Below are positions 16,901-41,817 of a DNA stretch of 64,000 nucleotides, piece after piece. The notes under the pieces are model-generated. The model saw only the letters and a program-made list of their open reading frames with translations. It ran no database searches and was not told the DNA's origin. The number at the start of each line of letters is the position of its first letter. Positions within the stretch are counted from its first letter, which is position 1. The stretch comes from an uncultured Acidobacteriota bacterium (GTDB lineage: Bacteria; Acidobacteriota; Thermoanaerobaculia; UBA5066; Gp7-AA6). The stretch covers positions 164,138 through 228,137 of the forward strand of contig CAWDUQ010000002.1 in assembly GCA_963805495.1 (NCBI GenBank). The letters run 5' to 3'. The position numbers were made by a program, and so were the translations under genes.

Positions 16901-16999
16901 GGCTCCCGCGAACTCGTCCAGCGGCCGATCCTCATCGTCCACGGGCCATCTCCTCGGCCAGACGAACCAGTGCGCGCTTCGTCGCCTTGTGCGCGGCAC
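13937..16999 (-). CDS. Transmembrane Ser/Thr protein kinase with a large TPR-rich extracytoplasmic sensor domain
   Basis: Hanks kinase motifs: GRGSFGEVYRA (P-loop), VAVK, HRDIKAQNLM, DFGTG, GTPLYLAPE. A single TM helix (ALIAAGFGLAILVVGAVAWL). About 600 aa of TPR-like repeats. The N-terminus overlaps the sigma gene's end; an alternative GTG start near 16942 would reduce the overlap to about 11 nt. Confidence 0.8.
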   Translation of the reverse strand: MPRTRRRSAHWFVWPRRWPVDDEDRPLDEFAGAVLDGQSVDWALAESSADERDREALQQLRVLAGIAELHRSLARDPLLSDSCTIPEEKLEHWGRLEILERIGRGSFGEVYRARDPKLDREVAVKLLHGGKEQPEGATVLREARLLARVRHPNVVTVYDADEIEGRVGLWMEFIHGRNLEQVLGERGKFDDREVTRIGIEVCRALSAVHDAGLLHRDIKAQNLMQTGDGRLVLMDFGTGRELEETPGSSLDAAGTPLYLAPEIFQGAQATVRTDIYSTGVLLFHLLTGAYPVRGATVKEVAEAHARGERLDLAEGAPAAKKALAAVIGRAIEHDSPKRFESARGMLAALENLQRRTEKPRRAALIAAGFGLAILVVGAVAWLSRTGSSPSAGTLQALPFQPRDWILVAGFENRTGDSLFDGTLDYALGLELSNSRHVNVVPRERVADALRLMRKPPDSSIDAGLAREVCLRDGGIRALLTGRVEKLGSNYLLSVELVDPKQGSTLAGFREESAGADGTLAAIGRISDRLRVALGDTADRGDPDATGLARVTTTNLRALQLYSRADLLMQPGHLRDSQPVAEELLRQAVAEDPSFASAWIHLAWTLRNQGKPLEEFQPYAETALRLADETSERERYFIRGSYYALLGQKDKAIAAYEALLDLYPDHLWAAWNLVNLYDWAHDPRALGKSAAMEARLADLHPKNFFWNWNAGYDFVVFVPDRAQAGSYLDRAAELVTPGVTEDFPHFVSWLDLLPFTEDWLKGDLAAASSDIDRVAAKVDSLNGPARDRFGLATALGYMTLGQLQKASRMAQQMADPVARNDMLAQISFNKGDTHALDRHLRFVGARPSEGGFPLTWRETTSILQARAGLTSEARRFLQPQENSAELHTVRGELALARKDLPGAVLELEDAMRLQEALKLDDRGARPGFYLGAESLADALAQRGDVPHAIRILEESSDRRYAVIRGNTAAYWLRNRLKLATLYRRVGREDDAQIVEAELTMLLALADSDHPIRLELQHRSAS

Positions 17000-17519
17000 C
17001 CGAGGTCGGCTTCCCGAGAAGGCGGGCGAGCTCCTCGTAGGAATACCCGAGCTCGACGCGGAGGATGATCGACTCGCGTTCTACTGGCCGCAGCCGCCCG
17101 AGAGCGTCTTCGTACCGTTCGATTTCTTCCATGCCGACAGCCTTCTCGAGAGGCGACCGCGCCGGGTCGACCTCGGTCCCTTCAAGCTCTCCGTGCGCCG
17201 GCCGCCTTGCCACCCGGCGGATCTCGTCGCGTATCCGGTTCATCACCGCCTGACGGAGGTAGGCCTGCAGGGCACCCTCCCGCTCGGGTGTGAAGACGTC
17301 CATCCTGTTAAACGTCTGAAGCAGGGTTTCCTGGACAAGATCCTGAGTGTCGGCCAGATCGCGCGCCCATTTGGGCAGCCGGCCCCTTGCCCAGCGCTGC
17401 AGCCGGGGCAGGTGGCGCGCGAAGAGCAGTTCGAGCGCCGGCTTGTCTCCCTCGCGAAACCGCTGGATGAGGCGGAACGTGGATTCGGCCTCGCCGCCGG
17501 GAGCGGGTTCGGGGGACAC
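16932..17519 (-). CDS. ECF (extracytoplasmic function) RNA polymerase sigma-70 factor
   Basis: Region 2 (LVQETLLQTFNRMDVF...YLRQAVMNRIRDEIRR) and region 4 (ESIILRVELGYSYEELARLLGKPTSGAAHKATKRALVRL). GTG start. No anti-sigma factor gene adjacent; a Ser/Thr kinase takes its place. Confidence 0.8.
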   Translation of the reverse strand: MSPEPAPGGEAESTFRLIQRFREGDKPALELLFARHLPRLQRWARGRLPKWARDLADTQDLVQETLLQTFNRMDVFTPEREGALQAYLRQAVMNRIRDEIRRVARRPAHGELEGTEVDPARSPLEKAVGMEEIERYEDALGRLRPVERESIILRVELGYSYEELARLLGKPTSGAAHKATKRALVRLAEEMARGR

Positions 17520-17990
17520 GGTTAGCGCCTAGTCTATTCCGCAGGCCACCCACCCACGGGTTTCCGCGGATTTTGAGCGATTTCGCGTCGAGAAAGCCTG
17601 CCGCGGTCGTTACTTGAGAAAAGGGCATGGTTGTGTACGCGACGCCGTCCAAGTCAGAGACCTGTTGCGAAACGCGGCTGGTCGAGAATCTGACACCTTC
17701 GTCGCTCGCCTGGCGCACGTCGCTCGCGTTTTTGCCGACAAGCGCTGCAGCGACTGGCTGCGGGAACTCGCGGCGAGAAACCTCCAGATCGTGACGATGC
17801 CGTCAGGCGGGGCGGGTATGGGGAGAGCCGGACGGCTTCTTGCCCTGCTCCGACAAAACATGCAAAAGGACCGAGGTGCCGAACCCTACCTACCCAGTCT
17901 AGCGAGGGTGCCCAGCCTCTGGATCGCCAGATCGCCTGCGTCACCAGAATCGCCAAGCCTACCGATGCGCCGACTGCCCGAGGAGGACAC

Positions 17991-20900
17991 ATGAGGGCTT
18001 CCCTTCGTTCCGGCCTCCATCTCGCGATTCTTCTCGGCATCGCGACCCACGTCGGTCTGCGAGGTCAGCTCGCCGCTTCGGACATCTGGGTCGGCAACGG
18101 GCCCGAGGGCGGGATCGTCAACGCGCTGGTCGTCGACCCATCTGACTCGAGCACGCTCTACGCCGGAACGACCTGGGGTGGAGTCTTCAAGAGTGTCGAC
18201 AGCGGCGCGAGCTGGAGTCCATCAAACCTCGGTCTCACGGGTAGGTCGGTCATCGCGCTCGCGATCGATCCCAGCAATCCGGCCACGATCTTCGCGGGGA
18301 CGATGCCGCAGGGGGAAGGCCAGGTCGGGCTGTTCAAGAGCACCGACGCTGGCGGCTCGTGGGCGCCATCCGCCGCCGGGATGATCTATTTCTTTGGATA
18401 CTACGCTGCGGTGGAGAACATCGAGGTCGACCCTCTATCGTCCTCCATCGTCTACGCGGGAACCCAGGCCGGCGCCTACAAGAGCATCGACGGAGGGGCT
18501 ACCTGGGAGAGTATCGGTGACTTCAACACGGGCTGTTTTGTGGCGATTGATCCTTCGACGCCCACAACCCTCTACGTCGGTGCAGGAGGCGCGGTCTACC
18601 GGAGCACGGACTCCGGGGCTAACTGGTTGCCGACCGGCGAGTTCAGTGGGGCGACGGTTCTCGGGATCATCGTCGATCCTACCGATAGCCAAGTGGTCTA
18701 CACGGTTGACAGCAACGGCGTCTCAAAGAGCATGGACAGCGGATCCTCATGGCAGAGCCTCCCGACAGGTCTCACGTATCCAAGCCTCTGGGAGCTCGCC
18801 ATGGATCCGCTCGACCACAACGTTCTCTACGTCGGAGCGCGATCAGGGTATCTCGACGAGTACGGTGTTCTAAAGACCACGGATGGGGGCGCGAGCTGGA
18901 ACCCGGTCAATTTCGGCATCGAGGATCAATTCAGTGTGGGGGCCATCGCAATCAGCCCTTCGACGCGCGGCATCGTCTACGCGGGCGGCTGGTCGTCGAA
19001 CTACAACTCGAACTCGCGCTCGTCTCCAGGAGGCGTCTACAAGACCACGAACGGCGCGGCTGTCTGGGCTCCTGCAAACAGTGGCCTGGCAAATTCCTTC
19101 GTCCACAGCGTCACGATCGATCCCGTCAATCCCGATATCCTGTATGCGGGGCTTTCGAGCTACGTCTCTCCATCCACAACCAACTTTGGCGTCTCGCGAA
19201 GCCTCGACGGTGGCGCCTCCTGGGGGCTTGCGAGTGAAGGATTGCTCGACCCCTATTCCGCCAAGACATCGCCTGTCTACGACGTCGTCGTCGATCCGAC
19301 CAACTCGAGCAGGGTCTACGCTGCTGGAGTCGGCGGCGTGTTTCGGTCGCTTGACGGCGGCGACTCCTGGGACCTGTTCGGCACTGGAATTAGCCCGACT
19401 CAGAACGGTGTCGAAATCGCGATCGACCCGGCCACGCCTTCCACGCTCTATCTCGCCACGTCCAACGGCTACGGGTTGTACAGGAGCACGGGTGCCGGCG
19501 GCGTCTGGTCGCCGATAGGCTCGGCCTACACATTTGCTCTCGATCCAGCCTCGCCCAACGTCCTCTACGGCGCAGAGATCGGTGGAATCGTCCGGAGCTC
19601 CGATGGAGGCGACACCTGGAGCACCCCGGTACCAGTCTGCTACAACGTCTACGCCCTCGCTGTTGCTGCCAATTCCTCCGCCGTCTACGCCGGTTGCTAC
19701 CTGGACGGAGTCTGGAAGTCTACTGACGACGGCGCGAACTGGTCCCACACGGATGAGGGCCTGGGCAATTGGTCGGTAGTTTCCCTCTTGGCGGACCCGG
19801 TCGATCCAAACACGATCTACGCCGGCGCAAATCAGAATCAGTTCGACACCGGCGCCGTCTACCGCTCGACCGATGCCGGGGTTCATTGGACGACCGTCGG
19901 CCAGGGGTTCCCGCCTCTGTTTGCCTACGGGCTGGCCCTTTCGCCGACAGGCAAGCTCTACGCAGCCACGGAGGGAGCGGGCGTCCTTGTCGTCGATGTC
20001 TGCGCCCCCGTCGGGCCTCCGACAGCCGGCAACGACGGACCTATTTTCTGTGAGGGGCAGACCATCAACCTGACCGCCTCGACGATAACCGGAGCAACCT
20101 ATGGGTGGACGGGACCCGGCGGCTTCACATCTAGTCTCCAGAACCCGACCATCTCCAACGCAACCCTCGCCGCCTCAGGGACGTATTCTGTCGTCGCGAC
20201 TGTGGACAACTGTGACACGTCGCCGGCGGACACAACGGTCGCCCTCAACGAGGCTCCGATCGCGACCGCCACGGGGTCGGCGACGATCACGGTCGGCCAG
20301 TCGACGCCTCTCTCGGGGTCGGGAGGTATTTCGTGCGTGTGGTCGCCGCCGACCGGCCTCGACGACGCCAATTCGTGCTCGCCGAACGCGAGCCCTTCGG
20401 TGTCCACTGTCTACTCGCTCGTCGTGACCGGTGCGAACGGCTGTGGCTCGACCAACGGAGCGGACGCCACAGTCACTGTAACCGGGGTAGGCATCCCACC
20501 TTCTGAGCGGGCTGCCCTGATTGCGCTGTACAACAGCACGAATGGTCCCGGCTGGACAAACAACACGAACTGGCTCGGGGCGCCGGGGACCGAATGCACC
20601 TGGTCTGGGGTGACTTGCGGTGCCAGTGGCACTACAGTCACCCAACTCATACTCTCGAGCAGGAATCTCACCGGCACGCTGCCTCCGGAGCTGGGCCAGC
20701 TCACCAACTTGCAGTTCCTTCGCTTCGGTCTTAATCACTTGAGTGGGGGGCTTCCACCAGAGCTCGGGAGCCTCGCCAACCTTGTTGTTCTCGATTTGCA
20801 ACTGAATCAGCAGCTCACCGGTCCGATGCCTCCCGAGCTGGCGTCCCTCACTAGCCTTCAGACCCTCATCGTCGACTACAACCAACTGTCTGGAAGTATC

Positions 20901-23900
20901 CCGGCGTGGCTGAGCAACCTGCCCTCCCTCAAGGTCCTTAGTCTCTTGGCGAACCGCTTCACTGGGTCGATACCTCCCGAGCTGGGGAACAGCCAGACGC
21001 TTCAGGAGCTGAGCCTCGGGTCGAACCAGCTCACCGGGCCAATCCCGGCTGAGTTGGGCAACCTTCAGAGCCTCACCTATCTCATCCTCGGACCGAATCA
21101 ACTGACAGGCGGAATTCCACCGGAGCTCGGCAACCTCGGCCAACTCAGAACGCTCAACCTGGCCTACAATCCGCTGGGCGGTGTCGTACCCGCCGCCCTT
21201 GGGAACCTCTCACAGCTCACATCGCTCTACCTCCAGGCCGACGGACTCACGGGAACGATTCCCGCCGAGCTCGGCAATCTGTCGACGCTGGCTAATCTCT
21301 ACCTGAATGGCAACCTGCTGAGCGGGCCGATTCCGCCAGAACTGGGGAACCTTGCCGCCGCCCGCTTCGTTGACCTCGAAGGCAATCAGCTCTCGGGAGC
21401 GATACCAATCCAACTCGGAGGCGCTTCTCTTCTGCTCGAGTTGTACCTCCAGGGAAATCGCCTGGAGGGCACGATCCCAGCCGAGATCGGCGACCTGACG
21501 GCTCTTCACATACTGAAACTCAACTCGAACAAGCTCGCCGGGCCGGTTCCCGGCAGCCTGTCCAACCTCACACAGCTACAGTCAGGCGGCCTGGATCTCC
21601 GGTGGAACGCTCTCGACACATCGGACTCGGCGCTTCTGGCGTTTCTAAATTCCAGGCAGATCGGCGGTGACTGGGAGGGCACCCAAACCGTGGCGCCTAC
21701 AAGCCCGAGCCTCGAAAGCGCGACTCCAAATGGCGTAAGCGTCGGCTGGACACCGATTCTCTACGCCGGAGACCCGGGCTTCTATCAAGTCATCTATGGA
21801 ACGACGACCGGCGGCCCTTACACGCCCTTTGCGACGACGACGACCGACAAATCAGCGTCCGGGCTTGCCGTGAACGGGCTCACACCCGGCACGGCCTACT
21901 ACTTCGTCGTGCAGACGACGACGCTGCCCCACTCGAATAACCAGAACACGGTAGCCAGCAACCCGAGTGTCGAGATCTCCGGGTCGACACTGAGCGGCAC
22001 CCCTACCCCCACAACGACGCCAACGGCAACCAGCACAGCGACATCCACCCCCACACCTACCGCTACCGGAACACCAACCTCAACCAGCACGCCCACAAAC
22101 ACTCCGACGCCCACTCAAACGCCGACGGCCACTCCGACACCGACGCTCACGCCTACCCAGACCCCGACGCAGACGAGCACGCCCACCCCGGTTCCGACCC
22201 CTACGACCACCAGTACCCCTCCGAGCACGCCAACGAGCACTGCGACTCAAACGCCGACCCCCGCTCCGACGGTAACGCCGCCTCCAACCCTGACCCCGAC
22301 GAAAACGTCAACGAACGTCGCTACGATCACGTCAACGGCGACCAGCACACCACCGCCTGCACCCACAAACACGCCGACGCCAACCCAGACGCCGGCACCG
22401 CTTCCGTGCGGCCCGACGCCCGACGAGTTTCCAATCCCAACGGCTGTCAGTGGGCCTTTCTTGATTGCTGCCGGATCCGATGGCGCCATTTGGTTCAGTG
22501 AGAATGGCGCCGACAAAATCGGCCGAATCACTACAGAGGGTGTCATTGCTGAATTCGCGCTTCCAATAGGTAGTGTACCTACCGGCATAACCGCTGGGCC
22601 GGATGGCAACCTCTGGTTCACGGAAACTGGCGCCAACAAGATTGGTCAGATCACTACCGGAGGCGTCATCACGGAATTCGCTGTCCCGACCGTCTCTTTC
22701 CCTTTCGACATCACCGCGGGACCGGATGGCGCTCTCTGGTTCACCGAAAGGAATCCAGCGCAGATCGGCCGGATATCGACATCTGGCGCTATCACCGAGT
22801 TTGCCCTCTCCGATCCCAGCAGCTTTCCATCCGGCATCACTGCGGGACCTGACGACGCCCTCTGGTTCACAGAATCCGCTGGTATTGGCAAGATCGGCCG
22901 AATCACTACGGCCGGCGATATTACTGAATTCGCGATCCCCACGGCCAACAGCTTTCCCTTTGACATCGTCGCGGGACCCGACGGGGCCCTGTGGTTCACG
23001 AGCAACGAGAAGATAGGCCGAATCACTGTCGGTGGCGTGGTCACGGAATTCGGGCTGCCCTCTCCCGGCAGTTACGGCATTGCAGTCGGGGTCGATGGCG
23101 CCCTCTGGTTCACGAAGCCAAACACGAATAGCATCGGGCGGATCACCATTGCGGGTGTCATCACGTTTTTCGCCCTCCCGCCCCCGGTCGGCAGCTTTCC
23201 GCTAGGCATTGTCGCGGGACCCGACGGCGCCTTTTGGTTTACCGAGTCTCAAGGCAACAAGATTGGCCGGATCTGCACGGCGGTGACGCCGAGTCCGACC
23301 AATACACCGACGCCGACGGTCATGCCGTCTGACACACCGACGAGTACTCCGAGCTTTACGCCTACCGTTACGCCAACCAACACGCCGACACAGACTGTCA
23401 CGGCCACACCGAGTCCGTCGCCAACCCCCACGCCAACGCCAACGGCGGTGCCGACGAACACGCCAACGAACGTCGCTACGATCACGCCAACGGCGACCAG
23501 CACACCACCGCCTGCACCCACAAACACGCCGACGCCAACCCAGACGCCGGCACCGCTTCCGTGCGGCCCGACGCCCGACGACTTTCCGGTCCCAACACCC
23601 TACAGCCAGGCTTTCGGTATCGCCGCCACGCCCGATGGTCCTCTCTGGTTCACGGAACTGAGCGGCAACAAGATCGGTCAAATCACCACGGCCGGGGTCA
23701 TCACCGAGTTCCCTATCCCTACGGCCGACAGTCAGCCTACTGGCATAGCGATGGGTTCGGACGGCGCTTTCTGGTTCACCGATCGAACGTCAACCAGGTC
23801 GGCCGAATCACTACGGCTGGCACAATTACCGAGTTTCCAATTCCCACGGCGAACAGTCGGCCTATAGGCATTACGCCGGGGCCGGACGGCGCCCTCTGGT

Positions 23901-24700
23901 TCACAGAGACCAACGGCAACCAGATCGGCCGGATCACCACGGCCGGGGCCATCACGGAGTTCCCAATCCCCACGGTCAGCAGTCGGCCTGTCGGGATCGC
24001 TGCGGGGGTTGACGATGCCCTCTGGTTCACCGAGACCAACGGCAACCAGATCGGTCGAATAGCAACGGACGGCGCTATCACAGAGTTCACAATCCCTACG
24101 GCGGGCGGCCCCCCCTATGCCATCGCGCCAGGGCCCGACGGCGCGCTGTGGTTTACCAAGCCGAACGCCGATCAGATTGGCCGAATAACGACGGCCGGCG
24201 TCATTACTGAGTTTTCCGTTCCCACCGACGGTCACCCCATCGGCATCACCGCCGGCGCGGACGGCGCTCTCTGGTTCGCCGAGAACGTCGTGAACCGAGT
24301 CGGCCGGATAACAACGACCGGCGCCATCACTGAGTATGACCTTACACCTTCGGGTCCGCCCGACCACATTGCCGCTGGATCGGATGGAGCCCTTTGGTTC
24401 ACGCGCGACATCGGCGACGCCATCGGGCGCATCTGCACGACTGCGGCACCGAACCCGACGAACACACCGACACCGACGATCACGTCGTCCAACACACCGA
24501 CGAAGAGTCCTAGCAACACGCCTACCGTTACGCCAACCAACACGCCGACACAAGCTGTCACGGCCACACCGAGTCCGTCGCCAACCCCAACGCCAACGGC
24601 GGTGCTGACCAATACCCCGAAACCGACGAAGACGCCGAACCCGACAAAGACGCCGAAGCCTACGAAGACGCCGAAGCCTAGGAAGACGCCGAAGCCATGA
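17991..24700 (+). CDS. Giant secreted mosaic surface protein, about 2,230 aa if one frameshift near 23,786 is bridged. Domains: BNR/Asp-box beta-propeller, Ig-like, about 13 plant-type LRRs, FN3, Thr/Pro linkers, two Vgb (streptogramin-lyase)-like beta-propellers, and a Lys/Pro/Thr-rich tail.
   Basis: Strong RBS GAGGAGG 7 nt upstream of the ATG, then a signal peptide. About 13 S-x-D-x-G-x-x-W repeats ([18 protein letters not shown] and so on). 24-residue LRRs (LxxLxxLxLxxNxLSGxIPxELGNL). An FN3-like domain. TPTPT linkers. WFTE...IGRIT..G.ITEF repeats characteristic of the virginiamycin B lyase fold, present in two copies. The ORF-track pieces are 17991..23867 and 23561..24700. Confidence 0.7.
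22309..22426. repeat. 118-bp direct repeat R1, copy 1 (linker preceding the first Vgb-like propeller)
   Basis: About 99% identical to 23464..23581, with one mismatch. Encodes ...[37 protein letters not shown]. Confidence 0.85.
23358..23455. repeat. About 95-bp direct repeat R2, copy 1 (linker following propeller 1). Copy 2 lies at 24518..24608.
   Basis: The string acgcctaccgttacgccaaccaacacgccgacaca[g/a][a/g]ctgtcacggccacaccgagtccgtcgccaacccc... occurs twice. Copy 1 carries a 6-nt insertion. Confidence 0.8.
23464..23581. repeat. 118-bp direct repeat R1, copy 2 (linker preceding the second Vgb-like propeller)
   Basis: See copy 1; seen directly in the sequence. Confidence 0.85.
24518..24608. 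repeat. About 91-bp direct repeat R2, copy 2 (linker following propeller 2)
   Basis: Near-identical to 23358..23455. Confidence 0.8.
24623..24694. repeat. Four 18-bp in-frame tandem repeats (cc[g/t]a[c/g][g/a]aagacgccgaa[c/g]) encoding (P)TKTPKP units at the C-terminus of the giant protein
   Basis: Direct reading of 24623-24694. Encodes [26 protein letters not shown]. Confidence 0.8.
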
Positions 24701-24830
24701 GAGGACCTACAAACCTAGCGCTTCGCCGCCGGCGCGAACGGGAGCCACAACGGAGGCGATGCGCGTTTGCTGGACCGGTTCGTACCCGCATGTCGACTTC
24801 GGGAGGACCTCCTTTGTCACCGAGAGATGA

Positions 24831-27800
24831 ATGGACGGCTCCCTGGCGGATTCCCCCGCAATCACAGCGCTTGCGAAGGGAGGCTCGCATGAATCCGGAT
24901 TCCGGACTTCAGATCAAGGGACAACTCCGGCTATCACGAGAGTTCTTGTCTGCTTTTTTCTCGGCGTCCTCTTGCTTCGACTTGTTGCCGGCGCTCAGAT
25001 CATCAGCGACTCTCGAGTCGCCGGTCACGCTGGCGCATTTAGAGAGCGCATTGGCGACATACGCATGCCTTTTGTCTCGAATGCCGGGCAGAGCGACCCT
25101 GCGGTTGCGTTCTACGCTCGGACCTTCGCCGGCACCGTCTTTGTCACTCGAAGGGGCGAGATCGTCTATTCGCTTCCACGGGCGGTCAGAGACGCCGGAG
25201 CGACTCAAAAACCCCGAGGACCCGCTCTCGAGGCGGATGCCGCGGGCTGGAGCCTGAGCGAGACGCCTGTCGCCGGGAAGGGTCGAGTTACCCCAGGCCA
25301 AAGGGCACCCGCCCTTGTCAGCTACTTCACTGGCTCTGATCCTGCTCGGTGGCGAACGGGCGTTCGCACATACGAGACCGTAGTGCTTGGCGAGGTCTGG
25401 CCGGGCGTGAGCCTGTCCCTGCGCGCCAGCGGTAACAATGTGGAAAAGGTCTTCACGATACGGCCCGGAGCGGACTTCTCTCGCATCCGGATGCGCGTCG
25501 CCGGCACACGGTCGCTCCGAATCGACGACGACGGTGCACTCATTGCGGCAACGGGGCTGGGAGAGGTGACGTTTACGCGCCCTCTTGGCTACCAGGAGCG
25601 GGACGGCGCGCGCCTGCCCGTCAAGGTGGGATACCGCGCGCAAGGTCGGCAATACGGCTTTTCAATCGGCGAACATGACCCTGCGCTGCCAGTAGTCATC
25701 GACCCCCTGTTGCAGGCGACATATTTGGGTGGCAGTGGCATGGAAGGTCAGTACTCCGTCGCTCTCGCTATCCACCCGACGACGGCGAAGTGTTCCTCGC
25801 TGGGTACACGTTCTCCGCCGACTTTCCTGGAACTGCCGGAGGGGCACAGCCGGCGAGCGGAGGCAGTATCGACTGTTTTGCGCGCGCCTGGACGCTGCTC
25901 TCACCACGCTGAGCCAGGCGACCTATTTCGGCGGCAGCTCCTTCGACCTCGCCTTTAGTCTCGCCGTCGAGCCAACGTCCGGCGACGTACTCATGGCCGG
26001 ATAACATCCTCCACCAACCTTCCGGGCACTACGGGTGGGGCCCAGCCGGTGAACGCGGGCAATCAGGACGCTTTCATCGCGCGCTTTGACGCTACTCTTG
26101 ACACGCTGTACCAGGCGGTCCTATCTCGGAGGCAGCTCCGACGAGTTGGCCTATTTCCTTGCTCTCGCGATTCACCCGACCTCAGGCGAAGTTCTCGTCT
26201 CCGGGTCAACGGACTCGTTCAATTTTCCCGGTACAGTCGGTGGGGCGCAACCCTCGAAAGGCACCTTCGGTGATGCTTTTGTTGCACGCTTGAACGCCGG
26301 CCTCACTACGCTCAACCAAGCGACCTATCTCGGCGGCAATGGTGACGATCTTGGCGGCGCCATGGCCATCGACCCTGGGTCTGACGATGTGCTCGTAGCC
26401 GGGAGCACGAACTCCACCGATTTTCCCGGGATAGCCGGAGGAGCCCAGGCTTCGAACGCGGTGACGGGGACGCTTTCATCGCGCGCTTGAACTTCAGTCT
26501 CACAGCGCTGAACCAAGCGACGTATCTCGGTGGTGGGGACACGAAAGCTGGCCGCGCTTGCCATCCATTCGAGCTCCGGGGACGTGTACATCTCCGGGGC
26601 CACGCTCTCCACTGACTTCCCGGGCACCGCGGGCGGCGCGCAGCCGGCCCATGGCGGCGGTTTCTACGACGCCTTTGTGGCGCGCTTGAATGGAAGCCTA
26701 ACGATACTGAACCAGGCGACCTATCTTGGTGGTGGTCGCCGAGACTCTTTTCTGCGCTCGCTATTCATCCGGCCTGGGGAGAAGTGTTCATTGCGGGCCA
26801 GACGTTTTCAGCCAATTTTCCCGGCACTGCCGGGGGAGCCCAGCCGGCATTCGGCGGTGGTAGTGGTGACGTCTTCGTCGGGCGGCTAAGCGTCAGTCTC
26901 ACGACGCTGAACCAGGCGACTTTTCTCGGAGGCAGCGGGGGCGACGCGTTCAAGGTGTCGCCATCGATCCGACTTCCGGCGACGTGTTTGTTGCCGGTCA
27001 GACGACTTCAACCGACTTTCCCGGCACCGTCGGTGGTGCCCAGCCAGCGAACGCTGGCGGTAGCGGCGACACGTTCATTGCGCGCCTGACGCCTGACCTG
27101 GCCGGCATTCCCACGATCGCACCCTCTTCAGGGCCCGCGTCGGGTGGGACCGTGGTCACGATTACTGGTAGCGGGTTTCAGGTCGGCGCCACCGTCACGA
27201 TCGGGAATGCACCGGCAACGGGAGTTTCCGTCGTCAACTCTCACCAGATCACCGCTACCACTCCGGCACTTGCTGCTGGCTCCCTGAACGACGTTGTCGT
27301 CACCAATCCGGGATCCTTGCCGATGTCGCCGCAGCTCGTGCTCGTCGGGGGGTTTTTCGCGGACTTTCCGACGTACCTCTCCCAGACCCGTTCCATACCT
27401 TCATCGAGAAGGTCTTCCGCAAGGGCATCACCGCCGGCTGTGGCGGGGGCAACTATTGCCGCGACAACTCCGTCACGCGGGCGCAGATGGCGGTGTTCCT
27501 GCTGAAGGCGGAGCATGGCGCCATTTTCGACCCACCTGATTGCGCCGGCATTTTTCCGCGATGTTCCCTGTACTCCTGGTATGGGCTTTTCGGACTGGAT
27601 CGAGCAGCTCGCGGCCGAGGGAATCACGGGTGGCTGCGGAGGTGGTAACTACTGCCCCAACGACCCCGTTACGCGGCAGCAGATGGCGGTCTTTCTCCTG
27701 AAGACCAAACATGGCCCGGGCTACGCGCCGCCGTCCTGCGCGGAATCTTCGGCGACGTTCCCTGCCCGAGCACGTTTGCGATTGGATCGAGCAGCCCGCT

Positions 27801-27908
27801 GCCGAAAACATCACCGGAGGTTGCGGCGGCGGGAACTACTGTCCTTCGTACCCGAACACGCGGGGGCAGATGGCGGTGTTTCTCGTGAAGACGTTCAATC
27901 TGCAATGA
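24831..27908 (+). pseudogene. SBBP (seven-bladed beta-propeller) repeat protein with an N-terminal DUF7948-like domain and C-terminal SLH-like domains. It is broken into at least 8 frame segments: either a decayed pseudogene or a region dense in sequencing errors.
   Basis: The first segment has a signal/TM stretch, then ...RMPFVSNAGQSDPAVAFYARTFAGTVFVTRRGEIVYSLP (DUF7948-like). The unit LNQATYLGGsg.D.a.aiAid..g.v.vAG.T.S.dFPGTaGGAQP..gG..DaFvArL recurs in ORF fragments 25729-26004, 26086-26490, 26530-26889, 26784-27089 and 26984-27505. The 3' end encodes two GCGGGNYCP-type SLH-like modules (27391-27908), again split across three frames. Confidence 0.55.
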
Positions 27909-27942
27909 CCGACTGTGTGGCCGAGAGAGGAAGTCGCGAGGG

Positions 27943-30900
27943 ATGTTGACAGTGAGGTGTGATGTGCTACGCGCTCGGCGAATGGAGCCAACGCTGTTGG
28001 TGGCTTTCGCCATCGCAGCGCTGACCGTACGGCCCCTCGCGGCGCAGACTTATCAGGTGCTTCACAATTTCGAACCGGTGCCGCCAGCCCTTCCGCTCGC
28101 AGGGCTGATAGCAGATTCGGTAGGTAATCTGTACGGTACGACGGTAAGCGGTGGGGTATGGGGCCACGGGACAGTATTCAAAGTCGACACCTCAGGCGCG
28201 CTGACGATCCTTCACAACTTTGGCTACTCCGAAGGGACCGGTCCGTGGGCGTCGTTGATTTGGGACGGCTTTGGAAACCTGTATGGAACGACTTGTTGCG
28301 GCGGCGCCGGCGGTCGTGGAACCGTGTTCAAGTTGGACAGCACGGGGGACCTCACGGCGTTGCATAGCTTCAGTGGCGGCGACGGCGCCGCTCCAACGGC
28401 CGCCTTGATTTCAGATGCCTCGGGAACCTTTATGGGACGACGTTGACTGGTGGCGTGGGTGATCACGGAACAGCGTTCAAGGTTGATCCTTCGGGCACGC
28501 TGACTACACTGCATGCATTTGGCGGCCCTGACGGTGACCAGCCGTGGGGAGCGCTGATCCGGGACGGTGGGGGCAACCTCTACGGGACGACTCTCTACGG
28601 TGGCGCTGGAGATCTCGGGACGGTCTTCAAGCTGGACATAGCTGGAACGCTGACGACGCTGCACGCGTTCGACGGCTCAGACGGGATTGTCCCGTGGGCT
28701 TCTCTGATTCAGGATGGCGCGGGCAACTTCTACGGCACGACGGCATACGGGGGCGTGAACGGGCGAGGAACCATTTTCAGGCTCGACCCCTCTGGGACCC
28801 TAGTCACCCTCCACAGTTTTTCGGATTCAGAGGGGGCAGTCCCGAGCGCCGGACTCCTCCGAGACGGGGCCGGGACTCTTTACGGGACAACCACCTTGGG
28901 TGGCGCAAGCGATCTCGGGACGGTGTTTGCGCTCGACACGTCTGGATTGCTAACGACGCTCTACGGCTTCAGTGGTCTCGACGGTAGCGCGCCTGAAAGC
29001 GCTCTAATCCAGGACAGTTTCGGCAACCTCTATGGGACGACGTACACGGGTGGCTCAGGCGGAGGTGGGACCCTCTTCAAGCTCGGCGCCAGCGGAGGAC
29101 TGACCACGCTCGTCACGTTCAACGACTCGGACGGTGCGTACCCGGCCGCTGCCTTGATTCAGGACGCCTCGGGCAACCTTTTCGGCGGAACGTCGTACGG
29201 CGGCGTGAACGGTGACGGAACGATCTTCAAGCTCGAGTCGTCTGGGGCGTTGACGGTGCTGCACAGGTTCAGCCGTTTTGTCGACGGTGCCAGCCCCTAC
29301 GCGGCACTTTGCCAAGACGGCCTGGGAAACCTTTACGGAACGACCGTCCTCGGTGGCGTGGGAGACAACGGAACGATCTTTAAGCTCGATGGCTCGCAAA
29401 CACTGACGAGGCTGCATAGCTTCAGCGGCTCGGGTGGCTCCGTCCCGATCGGCGCTCTGATTCAGGACGCCTCGGGAACCCTCTACGGCACAACTGCGAG
29501 CGGCGGGGCGAGCGGGATGGGCACGGTCTTCAAGTTCGACACGTCAGGAGTGCTGACTACGATACACAGTTTCACCGGTTCTGACGGTGCGGCTCCAGAT
29601 GCCGGGCTGATTCGGGACGGCACGGGAAACCTCTACGGAACGACCTCCGGCGGTGCAAGCGGCCATGGAACAGTTTTCAAGCTGGAACCCGCCGGATCGC
29701 TGACGACGCTACACAGTTTCAACGGTGCAGACGGGTCTTCTCCGTCGGCCGCCCTGATTCAAGACGGCTCGGGCAATCTATACGGGACGACTGCCAGCGG
29801 CGGCGCAAGCGGCTTCGGCTCTGGAACGGTTTTCCGGCTCGACACCGCAGGGACACTGACGACGCTGCACACCTTTGACGGCTCCGACGGTGCCAACCCC
29901 CGAGCCGCACTGGTCGGGGACGGCTCCGGCAACCTTTACGGGACGACTGTGGGCGGGGGGGGGGTGGGCTCTGGAACGATCTTCAAGCTCGACTCGGCTG
30001 GGATTCTGACGACACTGCACAGTTTCGACAAGTCCGATGGCGCTTTCCCGCTGGCTGGCTTGATGCAAGACACCTCTGGCAATCTCTTCGGCACGACCTC
30101 GGGAGGAGGCACGAACGGAACCGGCGTCGTCTTCTTTTTCGGAACGGCCACCGCGCCTTTTGCAGTTTCGGCTATCGACCCAGCGTCGGCCCCAGCGTTC
30201 CCCGAGACGTTCGTGAGGGTCGCGGGAGCGGGATTTCTGAGCGGGGCAACTCTCAGTATCGGAAGCGTCGTGGCCACGAACACCGCCGTCGTCGACTCAA
30301 CGAAGATTGAAGCGTCGACACCCGCGCTTTCGCCCGGAACGCTGAATGACGTTGCGGTTTCAAACCCGTGGTCATCGCCGACGGTTCTGGCCAAGGGCTT
30401 TTTCGCGGACTTCCTCGACGTGACGCAGGCAGACATCTTCCACAACGACGTTGAAAAGGTGTTCCGAAACGGCATCACCGCGGGATGTGGGGGTGGCAAC
30501 TACTGCCGGAATAGTCCGGTCACGCGCGCCCAGATGGCCGTGTTTCTGTTGAAGGCCGACCACGGATCCGCCTATCTACCGCCAGCGTGCTCGGGTATCT
30601 TCCCGGATGTCGAGTGCACGCCGTCACCCGCTTTTGCGGTCAACTGGATCGAGCGGCTCTACAAGGAAGCGATCACCGGCGGGTGTGGCGGGGGCAACTA
30701 CTGTCCTGGCAACTCCGTCACGCGCGCTCAGATGGCGGTTTTCCTCCTCAAGTCGGAGCATGGGGCGACCTACGTGCCGCCGCCGTGTACCGGCATCTTC
30801 CCCGACGTTGAGTGCACGCCGACACCCGCCTTCGCCGTCAACTGGATCGAGCAGCTGCACAACGAAGGCATCACCGGAGGCTGCGGTGGCGGCAACTACT

Positions 30901-30968
30901 GCCCGGGCAACTCCGTCACCCGTGGCCAGATGGCGGTGTTTCTGGTCAAGACGTTCGGTTTGCCGTGA
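27943..30968 (+). CDS. Secreted GloVer-type (Gloeobacter/Verrucomicrobium tandem repeat, 'choice-of-anchor') beta-propeller repeat protein with three C-terminal SLH-like domains. One frameshift near 28,425.
   Basis: Signal peptide MEPTLLVAFAIAALTVRPLAAQ. About 17 tandem repeats of about 46 aa (LTTLHSFsGsDGa.P.aaLiqDasGNLYGTT..GGa.G.GTVFKLd.sG). An IPT/TIG-like domain. Three copies of FPDVEC/FHNDV...W/FIE.L...GITGGCGGGNYCPGNSVTRAQMAVFLLK. ORF-track pieces are 27943..28446 and 28443..30968. Confidence 0.7.
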
Positions 30969-30974
30969 CGGGCG

Positions 30975-31015
30975 AAAGGACGGCCAAGGACCACGCGGCT
31001 CAGTCCTTGCCGTCC
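30975..31015 (+). terminator. Imperfect GC-rich hairpin just after the stop of the GloVer gene (aaggacggccaagga...tccttgccgtcc); no U-tract
   Basis: Inverted repeat ggacggc(c)aagga / tccttgccgtcc, 7 nt beyond the TGA at 30966-30968. Confidence 0.3.
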
Positions 31016-31145
31016 GTGTCTCCGCTCCTCAGCGGTGAATCGTCAGGTTGTCCACAGAATGACGCTGGCGCCACCGACCCGACAAGGAAACAGAGCCGTC
31101 GATCTGGAGAGCCCCGCGCTGACGCTGTTTGAAAGGAGAATCGAA

Positions 31146-31952
31146 ATGGAACCATTCCGAACCCCTACAAATGCCCCTACCAGACAGCGACGACTAGGCA
31201 TTGCGACCTTCGCACTAACACTCCTGTTTTGTCAGCCGCGTCGCGGCCTGGCAGACCCCCCCCGGTAAGCCCCCGAAGGCCACGGACATCCCCGTGACGA
31301 CGACGATCAGCGACGAGGATTCGGACGGAAACACCTACACCGTTGCGAGCGAGGGCGGGGCACCTACTTCAACGGGGTGGACAACGTCATGGCGATCCTG
31401 ACCTGCAACGGTTACAACGGAATCAAGAATGGCGACTGGCAGTTCAACAAGCCCGTCAGTGGCAAGAAGGGACAGCGGCAAAACGGACGCGGGATCACGA
31501 TGAGTCTCAACGTTTCCGACGCGGTCCAAGTCGGTGACCCGCACTATACGGCGCCGGCCGCCCCTCCGTACTGGGGCAGCGCGACCCTGTACGGCTATTC
31601 GGAGGTCAAGTGCACGTTGGTAGGCAAGAGCATGCTGACGATGGCGTCCGACACGGCAATGACTTGTCCTCTGCTGATCAACTTCTTCCCGGGAAATCCG
31701 GAGGTCGGCTACGGCCTGAATCCCGCGCACTCTGTCAATAACTTTCCCGAGGTCACGGACGCTCAGATCACTTGCGAATCAGCGGACTCCGGTGGCTGCA
31801 ATTCGTGGTCCATCGAGCCTTATGCCAACCCCGACCCCTGGGATGGTCGAGATCCGTTCGAAGCCGTCGGACGTTTGGTCCCGCACTCGAACACGAGCAT
31901 CAACAAGGGCGACTTCTACATGCGGTTCCACATTCACGTGACTCGGCCTTAG
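31146..31952 (+). CDS. Small secreted hypothetical protein, about 270 aa if intact. Split by two homopolymer frameshifts: a C8 tract at 31256-31263 and a G4 tract near 31358.
   Basis: Good SD (AAAGGAGAAtcgaaATG). N-terminus MEPFRTPTNAPTRQRRLGIATFALTLLFCQP is a signal peptide with an RR motif. The reading frame continues across the C8 run into ...KPPKATDIPVTTTISDEDSDGNTYTVASEGG and then into the ORF 31377..31952. Local GC is visibly lower than the flanks. Confidence 0.45.
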
Positions 31953-32023
31953 AGCCAGCGTAGTTTCCAGCAAGGGTCGGGCCCGGAGCGACGACACGCC
32001 GCGGCCCGACCCCTTTTTTGCGC

Positions 32024-40402: not shown

Positions 40403-41203
40403 CTAGGCGCGAAGGACGAGCAACCGGTCCTCGACCCGCGCGACGCCCGCGGCGCGGCGGGCGGCTTCGAGCGCCTGGGCTCTTTCGAGGTCCGTGTCGA
40501 CAACTCCCGACAGAGTGACGACTCCCCGGCGTGTCGTGACCTGGACACGGCCGCTGGGAACCGCTTCCTCGACCCTCGCGTGGACGTCGACGGAGATCGC
40601 GGCATCCTCCTCCGACATCGTCGCCGGGAAACCGGAGGCCGGGGCCGGCAGGAGCATGTCGGGCCCGGCCGCCGCCGGGGCCTCGCCGATCGAACCGTCG
40701 ACTTCGGGCGCGGGCTCGATTCCCGCGGCGGCGCGCCACTCGGCCGCCGGGGCCGGCGGGGCGAGCTCGACTTCAGCCGTTCCGGCTGGAACGAGTTCCG
40801 GCGCGCGGTCCGGAACGGCGGCCTCCCCTGCCGCCGCGGGCGCCGGCTCGAGGCGCGGGAAGGGCAGCGCGGCCCGCACGGCCCGCGGCACGACGACAGG
40901 GGCTTCGGCCGGCAGCCCGACGGGGGGCATCCGGAGGCGGTCGACGACCTGGACGACACTGGACGCCCGGCGAACGATCTCGAGGACGCGGCGGTGCGCG
41001 ACCTCGTCCGGGACTTCTCCCTCGAGAGTGACGACCCCCGCGCTCGTCGTGACGCTCAGATCGCGGGTCCGGACGATCGGATCGCTCTCCATCATCGAGA
41101 GGACGCGCTCGGTGATCGCCGCATCCCGCCGGCCGGATCCCGAACAGCCGGTGGCCATTGCCAGAAGAAGGAGGGGCAGGGGAAGAAGCGTCGCACGTTT
41201 CAT
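40403..41203 (-). CDS. Lipoprotein with two BON domains
   Basis: Lipobox [11 protein letters not shown]. Two BON-like segments: [35 protein letters not shown] and [36 protein letters not shown]. Confidence 0.65.
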
Positions 41204-41284
41204 CGGGGTGCCTCCAGTGCCATCCGACGAGGACGCCTGGAGGGAATGCAGGAGTCGTGCCGGGGCGTGGAGCGCCCCCGGCCC

Positions 41285-41755: not shown

Positions 41756-41817
41756 GCGCACCTCCCCGATCGATGCCGGGATCTTATCCCGCGGACCGGC
41801 TCGTCGTATCATTTCGG

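What the first reader, a model, noticed from the sequence alone, without database searches (positions are those of the whole stretch)
24831..30968. Two neighbouring secreted propeller-repeat proteins (SBBP-type and GloVer-type) share an unusual SLH-like C-terminal module with an inserted GGCGGGNYCP motif
Both proteins end in tandem modules of the form F(P/R)DV.C...(F/W)(A/S).(N/D)WIE.L...GITGGCGGGNYCP.NSVTRAQMAVFLLK. The SBBP protein carries two or three of these modules, scrambled by frameshifts. The GloVer protein carries three intact ones. The framework (FxDV...W...I..L...GI..G......P...VTRAQMA.FL) matches S-layer-homology domains, which anchor proteins to pyruvylated secondary cell-wall polymers. 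The canonical Gy.dgtFrP segment is replaced by a Gly/Cys-rich GGCGGGNYCP loop, with a further Cys after DV. This may be an undescribed SLH variant, possibly stabilised by a disulfide, used by this lineage to display beta-propeller repeat proteins. Together with the upstream giant protein, the interval 18-31 kb looks like a surface-protein island.
Basis: partly seen in the sequence, partly recalled or inferred. Interest (0 to 1): 0.7.

Follow-up and report, generated by a model that had tools for sequence, protein, structure and literature searches.

The report
Cysteine-paired SLH cell-wall anchor triplets
Two neighbouring secreted repeat proteins of an Acidobacteriota genome each end in three S-layer-homology (SLH) anchor domains of a large, already auto-annotated subfamily whose loops carry paired cysteines (probable disulfide staples); this is a modest variation on a well-known cell-envelope anchor, and the gene "scrambling" is a sequencing artefact.

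Summary
Six modules of about 63 aa lie at the C-termini of two adjacent genes, three per gene (tblastn E 1e-14 to 1e-45; next window hit E 0.014).

They are SLH domains:
- Pfam PF00395 scores 53 bits against a cutoff of 20.8.
- An AlphaFold model (pLDDT 96) superposes on the SLH trimers of B. anthracis Sap and P. alvei SpaA (Foldseek prob 1.0, TM 0.7-0.8).
- The ligand-binding Gly (GIIxG) and Arg (TRAQ/TRGQ) are kept.

The GGCGGGNYCP loop is a same-length substitution, not an insertion. The cysteines occur strictly in pairs. One is C-x5-C in the loop. Across 149 diverse homologues this second pair is present whole or absent whole in 380 of 385 modules, which argues for two disulfides.

The frameshifts are long-read assembly errors. 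A second assembly of the locus differs by 39 single-base indels and has the SBBP modules in one frame.

The subfamily is large: 8,428 50%-identity clusters at E<=1e-30. It is annotated as SLH, concentrated in Thermoanaerobaculia and also found in Anaerolineales, and attached to many different passenger domains. I found no paper describing it. The csaB link could not be tested.

The parts
24889..27908 (+). SBBP-type gene. It encodes a signal-like N-terminus, DUF7948, SBBP repeats, IPT/TIG and three SLH modules. In this assembly single-base indels split it into at least 6 frames. The reconstructed product is about 1009 aa.
   Evidence: ORF fragments. Indel map against the second assembly L001. 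Merged ORFs. Pfam on the reconstruction: DUF7948 158 bits, SBBP 27.4, TIG 54.8, SLH 48.5. Coordinates.
27107..27340 (+). IPT/TIG spacer domain of the SBBP-type protein.
   Evidence: PF01833 at 58.4 bits on ORF 26984-27505, residues 43-111.
27350..27540 (+). SBBP protein, SLH module 1. It has the loop pair CGGGNYC, no C-x8-C pair and no WIE Trp. The window lacks a T at 27365, which shifts the frame.
   Evidence: tblastn E 6e-22. Indel list. Intact in P0046.
27541..27742 (+). SBBP protein, SLH module 2 (CAGIFPDVPC...GITGGCGGGNYCP...TRQQMAVFLLK). The window has an extra C at 27559 and lacks a G at 27742.
   Evidence: tblastn E 5e-25. Pfam SLH at 26 bits on ORF 27515-27949..
27743..27905 (+). SBBP protein, SLH module 3, ending KTFNLQ followed by the stop codon at 27906-27908. 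The window lacks a G at 27780.
   Evidence: tblastn E 1e-14..
27943..30968 (+). GloVer-type gene. It encodes a signal peptide (MEPTLLVAFAIAALTVRPLAAQ, from 27982), GloVer tandem repeats, IPT/TIG and three SLH modules. The window lacks a G at 28422, which splits the gene into ORFs 27943-28446 and 28443-30968.
   Evidence: TIGR03803 at 591 bits. Merged single ORF. Indel list.
30153..30395 (+). IPT/TIG spacer domain of the GloVer protein.
   Evidence: PF01833 is recorded for P0001, the identical C-terminal 301 aa. Coordinates.
30396..30587 (+). GloVer protein, SLH module 1 (FLDV...GITAGCGGGNYCR..VTRAQMAVFLLK). It has the loop Cys pair only.
   Evidence: Pfam SLH best stretch at residues 657-699, matching profile positions 2-44. 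tblastn E 9e-20.
30588..30785 (+). GloVer protein, SLH module 2, with both Cys pairs (CSGIFPDVEC and CGGGNYC).
   Evidence: (C97 and C103 invariant).
30786..30965 (+). GloVer protein, SLH module 3, with both Cys pairs. It ends KTFGLP, followed by the stop codon at 30966-30968.
   Evidence: (C163 and C169 invariant).
17991..24700 (+). Upstream giant secreted repeat protein. It contains Sortilin/BNR-like repeats, LRR, Pro/Thr-rich linkers and three Vgb-lyase-like propellers. It has no SLH anchor. It is part of the 'island' but not of the SLH feature. The window lacks an A at 23782, which splits it.
   Evidence: Pfam. Merged ORF 17694-24698 in merged-sequence coordinates, one base short of window numbering at its 3' end, so the stop codon falls at window 24698-24700. 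Lower GC.

Best explanation
Each of the two adjacent genes encodes a secreted beta-propeller-repeat passenger, followed by an IPT/TIG spacer and a C-terminal cassette of three tandem SLH domains.

The cassette folds into the classical pseudo-threefold SLH trimer: three core helices, three lobes and three grooves. By analogy with Sap and SpaA, it most likely tethers the protein non-covalently to an anionic, probably ketal-pyruvylated, glycan of the cell envelope. Binding would use the conserved Gly of the GIIxG motif and the Arg of the TRAQ/TRGQ motif.

The modules belong to a large cysteine-bearing SLH subfamily with two likely intramodule disulfide staples:
- SLH positions 30 and 36 (Tyr and Arg in the Pfam consensus) are both Cys. 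They would close a small C-x5-C ring (C-x7-C in some relatives) directly after the ligand-binding Gly29.
- In modules 2 and 3, a second pair (PPxC in the linker and DVxC, C-x8-C) would pin the inter-module linker to the start of the next module.

The staples probably rigidify and stabilise the anchor outside the cytoplasm.

What is shown: SLH family membership, the predicted trimer fold, conservation of Gly and Arg, pairwise occurrence of the cysteines, modular use with many passengers, and the artefactual nature of the frameshifts.

What is inferred: the disulfides themselves, the ligand, and the cellular location (periplasmic face of the wall or the cell surface) in this diderm organism.
For: SLH identity and fold:
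- Pfam SLH scores 53.3 bits (three stretches) and 26 bits against a cutoff of 20.8.
- 54 of 55 related loci hit SLH.
- phmmer finds Sap SLH (6bt4, 3pyw) at E about 4e-4.
- The AlphaFold2 model of the 190-aa cassette has pLDDT 96.1 and pTM 0.90, with two helices per module.
- The top 15 Foldseek PDB hits are all Sap or SpaA SLH trimers over about 180 columns (prob 1.00, TM 0.65-0.84). The next hit has E 0.18.

Ligand residues:
- G30, R44, R110, G162 and R176 are invariant, and G96 is at least 90% conserved, in 106 homologues.
- These match SLH-Gly29 and SLH-Arg43, which contact 4,6-pyruvyl-ManNAc in SpaA (PMC6081394).

Disulfides:
- The loop cysteines C97, C103, C163 and C169 are invariant.
- In 149 representatives at 50% identity, loops carry two Cys in 381 modules, none in 4 and one in 0.
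- In the same set the linker/DVxC pair is both present in 200 modules, both absent in 180, and half present in 5.
- The closest 120 homologues give 140, 94 and 2 for the same three categories.
- Spacings are C-x5-C in 507 modules, C-x7-C in 126, and C-x8-C in 338.
- Both proteins have signal-peptide-like N-termini.

Anchor role:
- The cassette is C-terminal in 126 of 149 representatives.
- It is joined to many passenger domains, including TIG, beta-helix/NosD, GSDH, Vgb-lyase, subtilase and DUF1800.
- GloVer passengers occur with the cassette (26 of 120) and without it (94 of 120).
- NCBIfam names GloVer a 'choice-of-anchor' repeat.

Artefact:
- There are 39 single-base indels between the two assemblies, at different places in each.
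Against: - No coordinates were available, so no Cys-Cys distance was measured.
- No pyruvyltransferase (PF04230, csaB) was found among about 30 window ORFs scanned or within 10 kb of three homologues. A 64-kb window cannot show absence from the genome.
- The residue that aligns with the sugar-stacking SLH-Trp13 of Sap is a Phe. The family's conserved Trp lies four residues later. The binding pocket may therefore differ.
- The salt-bridging Lys of SpaA groove 2 has no counterpart here (a Val occupies its position).
- The host is a diderm: a TonB-dependent outer-membrane receptor lies at 10764-13670, and it is a Thermoanaerobaculia relative. A wall-bound C-terminal SLH cassette would keep the passenger under the outer membrane, not on the surface. 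This conflicts with the 'display' picture borrowed from Gram-positive bacteria.
- Per-domain Pfam scores are low, and precomputed hits are flagged 'faint'. The subfamily sits at the edge of the model.
Confidence: 0.75

Rival explanations
1. The fold is the same, but the job or location differs. In this diderm lineage the cassette does not display proteins on the cell surface. Either it retains secreted enzymes and binding proteins in the periplasm on peptidoglycan or a wall-linked polymer, or it binds a different anionic glycan (exopolysaccharide or lipopolysaccharide) outside the outer membrane.
For: - Diderm context: a TonB-dependent receptor is in the window, and the lineage is Acidobacteriota.
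- Many passengers are typical periplasmic or extracytoplasmic enzymes, such as GSDH, NosD-like beta-helix, subtilase and DUF1800.
- The Trp13 position is altered and there is no SpaA-type Lys (PMC6081394).
- No csaB was seen nearby.
Against: - The Gly29 and Arg43 equivalents that grip the pyruvate carboxylate are invariant.
- GloVer passengers elsewhere are classed as surface-anchored 'choice-of-anchor' proteins.
- No localisation data exist either way.
Confidence: 0.35
2. The conserved cysteines are not intramodule disulfides. Instead they bind a metal ion, or they form intermolecular disulfides that cross-link anchored proteins into a covalent layer.
For: - There are four Cys per full module and ten per cassette.
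- Gly-rich Cys loops can bind metals.
- No coordinates were inspected.
Against: - The two pairs vary independently. The loop pair is present without the linker pair in module 1 and in Anaerolineales-type proteins. A four-Cys metal site is therefore not conserved.
- Cysteines are never found singly in the loop: 0 of 385 modules.
- The short fixed spacings C-x5-C and C-x8-C fit local staples.
- The proteins are exported.
Confidence: 0.08
3. The SBBP-type gene really is a decaying pseudogene, as the scrambled reading frames suggest.
For: After merging the two assemblies, one frameshift (near 26120) remains in both. The window also carries an extra C at 27559.
Against: - The two assemblies place their indels at different sites, nearly all as missing bases. 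Each assembly repairs the other.
- The SLH cassette is a single ORF in L001.
- The neighbouring giant and GloVer genes show the same pattern and become intact on merging.
- The contig names (contig_NNNN) and the MFD isolate labels on the related Acidobacteriota MAGs point to long-read metagenome assemblies. That reading of the names, and the expectation that two such assemblies can share a systematic error, come from general knowledge rather than a tool result.
Confidence: 0.12

Closest known systems
SLH-domain trimers of Bacillus anthracis Sap (PDB 3PYW, 6BT4) and Paenibacillus alvei SpaA (6CWC, 6CWH, 7SV3 and others)
   Same: - Three tandem modules of about 55-65 aa.
- The predicted fold superposes over about 180 residues (TM 0.65-0.84, prob 1.0).
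- GIIxG with the conserved second Gly, and a TRAE-type motif with the conserved Arg. TRAQ also occurs in SpaA SLH3 (PMC6081394).
- Loop length is identical.
   Different: - Sequence identity is 13-22%.
- Cys occupies the two positions that flank the Gly-rich loop directly after Gly29.
- There is a second Cys pair between the linker and the DVxC segment.
- Phe sits at the aligned Trp13 position, with a new conserved Trp four residues later.
- The cassette is C-terminal, not N-terminal.
- The host is a diderm Acidobacteriota, not a monoderm Firmicute.
C-terminal triple-SLH anchors of Clostridium thermocellum S-layer proteins (SLAP1, SLAP2), as cited in PMC8559796
   Same: The architecture is the same: a passenger followed by three SLH domains at the C-terminus, acting as a modular non-covalent wall anchor.
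   Different: - The Clostridium examples have no conserved cysteine pairs, as far as I know. This was not tested here.
- The host is monoderm.
OmpM / SlpA-type outer-membrane tethers of diderm Terrabacteria (Deinococcus, Thermus, Negativicutes, cyanobacteria)
   Same: SLH domains are used in a two-membrane envelope to bind the wall layer. These papers came up (PMC9388160; bioRxiv 10.1101/2023.08.14.552755).
   Different: Those proteins carry a single N-terminal SLH per chain, trimerise through a coiled coil, and end in a beta-barrel. Here there are three tandem SLH domains at the C-terminus of soluble repeat or enzyme passengers, with no barrel.
NCBIfam TIGR03803 'choice-of-anchor tandem repeat GloVer-containing protein'
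   Same: The downstream protein is a clear member, at 591 bits with 12 repeat stretches.
   Different: The family name covers the passenger only. The anchor chosen here is the Cys-paired SLH cassette, found in 26 of the 120 closest passenger homologues.

Membership tests
SLH domain (Pfam PF00395 / PROSITE PS51272) | Profile match above the curated threshold | tested here: met
   53.3 bits for the GloVer protein and 26.0 bits for the ORF holding SBBP modules 2-3, against a cutoff of 20.8. The reconstructed SBBP protein scores 48.5 bits. 54 of 55 related loci hit SLH.
SLH domain (Pfam PF00395 / PROSITE PS51272) | Three modules assemble into the pseudo-threefold 'three-pronged spindle', with two helices per module | tested here: met
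   The AlphaFold2 model has pLDDT 96.1 and pTM 0.90, with helices 16-24/44-56, 82-90/110-122 and 148-156/176-187. The top 15 Foldseek hits are all Sap or SpaA SLH trimers. This is a prediction, not an experiment.
SLH domain (Pfam PF00395 / PROSITE PS51272) | GIIxG motif with the conserved second Gly (SLH-Gly29) | tested here: met
   The motifs are GITAG, AITGG and GITGG. G30 and G162 are invariant, and G96 is at least 90% conserved, in 106 sequences. 589 of 665 modules end the motif in Gly.
SLH domain (Pfam PF00395 / PROSITE PS51272) | TRAE-type motif with the conserved Arg (SLH-Arg43) | tested here: met
   The motifs are TRAQ, TRAQ and TRGQ. R44, R110 and R176 are invariant. TRAQ and TRGQ dominate across the subfamily.
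SLH domain (Pfam PF00395 / PROSITE PS51272) | Conserved sugar-stacking Trp (SLH-Trp13) | tested here: inconclusive
   In the HMMER alignment to Sap, the Sap Trp aligns with Phe of PAFAVNW, and the family's conserved Trp (W84, W150) lies four residues later at the start of helix 1. Module 1 has neither Trp. Coordinates are needed to decide which aromatic residue lines the groove.
SLH domain (Pfam PF00395 / PROSITE PS51272) | Binds a ketal-pyruvylated secondary cell-wall polymer, with a csaB-type pyruvyltransferase in the genome | not testable with these tools
   PF04230 was not found among about 30 window ORFs or next to three homologues. Whole genomes could not be scanned, and binding requires an experiment.
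GloVer repeat (NCBIfam TIGR03803) | Tandem repeats of about 50 aa matching the model above its cutoff | tested here: met
   591.5 bits against a cutoff of 44, in 12 stretches.
SBBP beta-propeller repeat (Pfam PF06739), with an N-terminal DUF7948 | Profile matches above the cutoffs | tested here: met
   On the reconstructed 1009-aa protein, DUF7948 scores 158.5 bits (cutoff 27) and SBBP 27.4 bits (cutoff 20.5). The SBBP score is only just above threshold, although the repeat is visibly present about seven times.

The most novel reading that the evidence does not exclude
The cysteine-paired SLH cassette is the principal protein-anchoring device of Thermoanaerobaculia, a diderm Acidobacteriota class in which SLH-mediated anchoring has not been studied. 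It would be used by several to many genes per genome with diverse passengers. That would imply a pyruvylated (or otherwise anionic) wall- or outer-membrane-associated glycan that has not yet been described in this phylum. The disulfide next to Gly29 would lock, or redox-gate, the backbone flip that SpaA needs for ligand binding.
Probability: 0.25. Interest if true: 0.5.

Novelty: new variant of a known kind. Interest (0 to 1): 0.3.

Why it matters
SLH anchoring has been worked out almost entirely in Gram-positive Firmicutes and in single-SLH outer-membrane tethers. This finding shows a very large, sequence-distinct SLH subfamily concentrated in uncultured soil Acidobacteriota and Anaerolineales. 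It has a simple, testable structural signature: two cysteine pairs per module.

If the disulfides and a pyruvyl-glycan ligand are confirmed, three things follow:
- There would be an unrecognised envelope polymer in a major soil phylum.
- Diverse extracytoplasmic enzymes in that phylum would be shown to be retained by one common anchor.
- A stabilised SLH scaffold would be available for display applications.

As it stands, this refines the annotation of an SLH subfamily. It is not a new mechanism. The practical lesson for this window is that the 20-31 kb region carries many long-read indel errors and should not be read as pseudogenes.

Tried and rejected
- **Insertion reading of GGCGGGNYCP.** Rejected. 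The Pfam and Sap alignments are gap-free across the loop.
- **Pseudogene reading.** Largely rejected by comparison with the second assembly.
- **A different Pfam family covering the motif.** DUF7569 (PF24453) appears in precomputed hits. On rescanning it scores 25-27 bits against a cutoff of 27, over only 15-19 residues (WIE..LA), and produces no stretch that passes on its own. It is not a competing annotation.
- **NCBIfam inl_like_NEAT_1.** This is only a partial match to that model's own SLH tail, 33.6 bits against a cutoff of 1275.
- **Assigning functional and non-functional grooves from the Trp.** Abandoned, because the Trp13 equivalent is ambiguous.
- **Measuring Cys-Cys distances.** Not possible. 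Structure prediction returns no coordinates.
- **AFDB fold search for named UniProt relatives.** The library was unavailable.
- **Literature.** Four searches found no description of a cysteine-bearing SLH subtype or of SLH anchoring in Acidobacteriota. The library holds open-access papers only, so this is weak negative evidence.
- **PEP-CTERM-like tails.** A regex search among GloVer homologues found none in the top 120.
Full report
**What is in the sequence**

The interval holds two co-directional genes on the + strand. In this assembly both are broken into several ORFs.

A tblastn search with one 66-aa module against the whole window finds exactly six copies:
- 30396-30587, 30588-30785 and 30786-30965, all in one frame, at the end of the downstream gene.
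- 27349-27537, 27554-27733 and 27765-27893, in three different frames, at the end of the upstream gene.

E-values run from 1e-45 to 1e-14. The next best hit in 64 kb has E 0.014, so the repeat is far beyond chance.

The downstream passenger is a GloVer tandem-repeat protein: TIGR03803 scores 591 bits against a cutoff of 44. The upstream passenger starts with DUF7948 and continues with SBBP-type repeats. In both genes an IPT/TIG domain lies directly before the modules. Both have signal-peptide-like N-termini...VLVCFFLGVLLLRLVAGAQ and MEPTLLVAFAIAALTVRPLAAQ (read by eye, no predictor run).

**The frameshifts are assembly errors**

The identical C-terminal protein is on record from a second, independent metagenome contig, ENA ERZ25039539 contig_21257. 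That contig aligns to window 20058-31429 at 99.2% identity, with 52 mismatches and 39 single-base indels.

The indels lie at different sites in the two assemblies, and almost all are missing bases:
- From 20.3 to 22.7 kb the other contig lacks bases.
- From 23.8 to 28.4 kb the window lacks most of them.

I merged the two by keeping every base present in either. The results were as follows:
- The upstream giant protein becomes a single ORF ending at about 24700.
- The GloVer protein becomes a single ORF of about 1000 aa with a signal peptide.
- The SBBP gene collapses from at least 6 fragments to two large pieces plus a tail.

In the other contig the three SBBP modules form one uninterrupted 195-aa ORF, P0046. 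One frameshift near 26120 is shared by both assemblies, and the window has one extra C at 27559. The contig naming and the MFD isolate labels on the related MAGs point to long-read assemblies.

The 'scrambling' is therefore technical. A true lesion at 26120 cannot be excluded.

**What the modules are**

Several lines of evidence identify them as SLH domains:
- Pfam SLH (PF00395) matches the GloVer protein at 53.3 bits in three stretches. It matches the ORF holding SBBP modules 2-3 at 26 bits and the reconstructed SBBP protein at 48.5 bits. The gathering cutoff is 20.8.
- phmmer against PDB sequences finds the SLH region of B. anthracis Sap (6bt4, 3pyw) at E about 4e-4.
- An AlphaFold2 model of the 190-aa cassette, built on an alignment of 106 homologues, has mean pLDDT 96.1 and pTM 0.90, with two helices per module.
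- The 15 best Foldseek matches in the PDB are all SLH trimers of Sap and of P. alvei SpaA. They cover about 180 columns with probability 1.00 and TM 0.65-0.84. The next hit drops to E 0.18.

Blackler et al. (PMC6081394) define the ligand-contacting residues of SLH trimers as SLH-Trp13, SLH-Gly29 (the second Gly of GIIxG) and SLH-Arg43 (in TRAE). Here the motifs are GITAG/AITGG/GITGG and TRAQ/TRAQ/TRGQ. G30, R44, R110, G162 and R176 are invariant, and G96 is at least 90% conserved, across 106 homologues that share 51-83% identity with the query.

The Trp is less clear. In the HMMER alignment the Sap Trp pairs with Phe of PAFAVNW, and the family's own conserved Trp (WIE) lies four residues later, at the start of helix 1. 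Module 1 lacks that Trp altogether. I therefore do not assign functional grooves.

**The cysteine signature**

The loop after GIIxG is not an insertion. Pfam aligns 43 residues to profile positions 2-44 in module 1, and 30 residues to positions 15-44 in modules 2 and 3. Sap's GNDKGMFEP aligns with GCGGGNYCP without a gap. The two cysteines therefore replace the residues at SLH positions 30 and 36 (Tyr and Arg in the Pfam consensus), and the first follows the ligand-binding Gly29 directly.

That Cys has a partner eight residues upstream, in the inter-module linker: PPxC-x8-C, as in CSGIFPDVEC. Module 1 has no preceding SLH linker and lacks both members of this pair.

Counts across homologues:

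| Set | Linker/DVxC pair: both, neither, one | Loop Cys count |
|---|---|---|
| 120 closest homologues, 236 modules | 140, 94, 2 | two in all 236 |
| 149 representatives of 50%-identity clusters, 385 modules | 200, 180, 5 | two in 381, none in 4, one in 0 |

Spacings are fixed:
- C-x5-C in 507 modules.
- C-x7-C in 126, as in CSSSPLLYC.
- C-x6-C in 20.
- C-x8-C in 338 for the linker pair.

The cysteines appear or disappear in pairs, at short fixed spacings, in exported proteins. That is the expected signature of two local disulfides per module. It argues against a four-Cys metal site, because the two pairs vary independently. These counts are not phylogenetically independent, and no coordinates could be inspected, so the disulfides remain an inference.

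**How widespread it is and how it is annotated**

- A word-indexed search with the cassette saturated: 6,992 of 8,000 scored candidates had E<=1e-5. Pfam SLH is recorded for 119 of the 120 hits listed. Where a source gives an informative name it is mostly 'S-layer homology domain-containing protein' (Anaerolineales, Thermoanaerobaculia) or a TIGR03803/TIGR02543 repeat-protein label; most JGI names are 'hypothetical protein'.
- An exhaustive profile search of 1.84 billion cluster representatives gave 124,528 hits at E<=1e-3, 57,877 at E<=1e-10 and 8,428 at E<=1e-30. The strongest class is the Cys-paired type. The profile also included some TIG columns, so these figures are approximate.
Of the best 79 loci, 78 are Acidobacteriota or Thermoanaerobaculia MAGs and one is Anaerolineales. 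Several loci come from the same genome, for example six each from CAVXOX and JANMBR.
- An Anaerolineales contig carries at least eight SLH genes in a row.
- The window's own lineage is Thermoanaerobaculia-like. Its CoxL is 100% identical to a protein on a 1.76-Mb contig and 89% identical to a protein named as Thermoanaerobaculia.
- The organism is diderm: a TonB-dependent outer-membrane receptor lies at 10764-13670.

**Modular use**

The cassette is C-terminal in 126 of 149 representatives.

In 55 related loci it follows:
- TIG (27 loci)
- beta-helix (13)
- NosD (7)
- Ig or PKD domains
- Vgb-lyase-like propellers
- GSDH
- phytase-like domains
- NHL
- subtilase
- LamG
- PQQ propellers

In five of the 55 scanned loci it precedes a DUF1800 domain.

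Among the 120 closest GloVer passengers, 26 end in the cassette and 94 do not.

Module identities are position-specific between the two window proteins. Module 1 matches module 1 at 72%, against 47-58% for other pairings with module 1. Modules 2 and 3 are more alike within each protein, at 82% and 75%. The triplet is therefore inherited as a unit. All of this fits an interchangeable anchoring cassette.

**Mechanism proposed**

After export, the three SLH modules fold into the pseudo-threefold spindle. The invariant Arg and Gly residues line the inter-module grooves and bind an anionic envelope glycan. By analogy with Sap and SpaA this would be a ketal-pyruvylated sugar on a wall-linked polymer.

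The C-x5-C staple closes the otherwise very flexible Gly-rich loop next to Gly29. The C-x8-C staple fixes each linker to the following module. Together they would make the cassette more rigid and more stable outside the cell. The TIG domain spaces the propeller passenger away from the anchor.

Because the host has an outer membrane, the passenger may sit in the periplasm on the wall rather than on the cell surface. I cannot decide this.

No PF04230 pyruvyltransferase was found among about 30 ORFs of the window or within 10 kb of three homologues. This says little about whole genomes.

**Comparison with what is known, and novelty**

This is an SLH domain by every sequence and fold criterion I could test, and public pipelines already label it so. 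It differs from the characterised Sap and SpaA domains in four ways:
- the two cysteine pairs,
- the Phe/Trp arrangement before helix 1,
- its C-terminal position,
- its concentration in Acidobacteriota and Anaerolineales.

Four literature searches found no description of a cysteine-bearing SLH subtype or of SLH anchoring in Acidobacteriota. One review lists Acidobacteria and Chloroflexi only among phyla with few representatives in its map of S-layer protein sequences (PMC8559796).

I rate it a new variant of a known kind, of modest interest. It is a tidy, testable structural embellishment and a pointer to unexplored envelope biology in a major soil phylum. It is not a new mechanism.

Noticed in passing
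window 20058-31429 compared with L001: The two assemblies of the same locus differ by 39 single-base indels and 52 mismatches (99.2% identity). Almost all indels are missing bases, often beside short homopolymers. ORF-based reading of this region is unreliable, and apparent pseudogenes here are artefacts.
   Followed up: yes
window 17991-24700: The upstream giant protein is about 2,230 aa once repaired. It contains Sortilin/BNR-like repeats, LRRs, long Pro/Thr-rich linkers and three Vgb-lyase-like propellers. It ends in a Lys/Pro/Thr-rich tail (…[14 protein letters not shown]) with no SLH cassette or other recognised anchor. It contains internal repeats of about 146 bp at 95-96% identity (22296-22441 and 23451-23596).
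   Followed up: partly
window about 18000-32000: The three surface-protein genes have lower GC (0.62-0.63, against 0.65-0.74 in the flanks). Their GC3 is much lower (0.65-0.73) than that of housekeeping genes such as CoxL, RibBA and Ddl (0.92-0.95). This could reflect foreign origin or relaxed or different codon usage in repeat proteins. The indel errors blur the estimate.
   Followed up: partly
window 13937-17519 (- strand); L081 20091-20606: An ECF sigma factor (16932-17519) and a Ser/Thr kinase with TPR repeats (13937-16999) lie directly upstream of the island, on the opposite strand. In an unrelated contig, an ECF sigma gene also sits next to a NosD-TIG-SLH gene. This may indicate regulatory coupling of these envelope proteins.
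   Followed up: no
L036, L043, L048, L051, L062, L064, L066, L072, L074: In a subset of Acidobacteriota loci, the ORF that carries the Cys-paired SLH modules ends not in the cassette but in a conserved …QALYLV..SQYQVQR tail. In the five of these loci that were scanned (L036, L043, L051, L062, L066) that downstream part is a DUF1800 domain. This is a recurrent SLH-then-DUF1800 architecture of unknown function.
   Followed up: partly
window 49465-51165 (+): A single 566-aa ORF combines the exo-beta-N-acetylmuramidase NamZ (N- and C-terminal domains) with a MobB molybdopterin-guanine-dinucleotide synthesis domain. This is either an unusual fusion or two genes run together by an indel or a missed stop codon.
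   Followed up: no
window 40580-43501 (+): The 973-aa ORF has its methylmalonyl-CoA mutase domain only at residues 452-964. The N-terminal 450 aa had no Pfam hit. This may be an over-extended ORF in high-GC DNA or an unannotated N-terminal region.
   Followed up: no
L083 (Anaerolineales MAG GCA_016714625.1, JADKCM010000045.1): A 20-kb stretch carries at least eight consecutive SLH-domain genes with different passengers (beta-helix, Flg_new, FG-GAP and others), next to a two-component system. This is a much denser SLH gene cluster than the one in the window.
   Followed up: no
window 31377-31952 (+): The 191-aa ORF just downstream of the GloVer gene has no Pfam match. The two assemblies diverge sharply from about 31300 to the end of L001, where mismatches cluster. 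This is probably contig-end noise.
   Followed up: no
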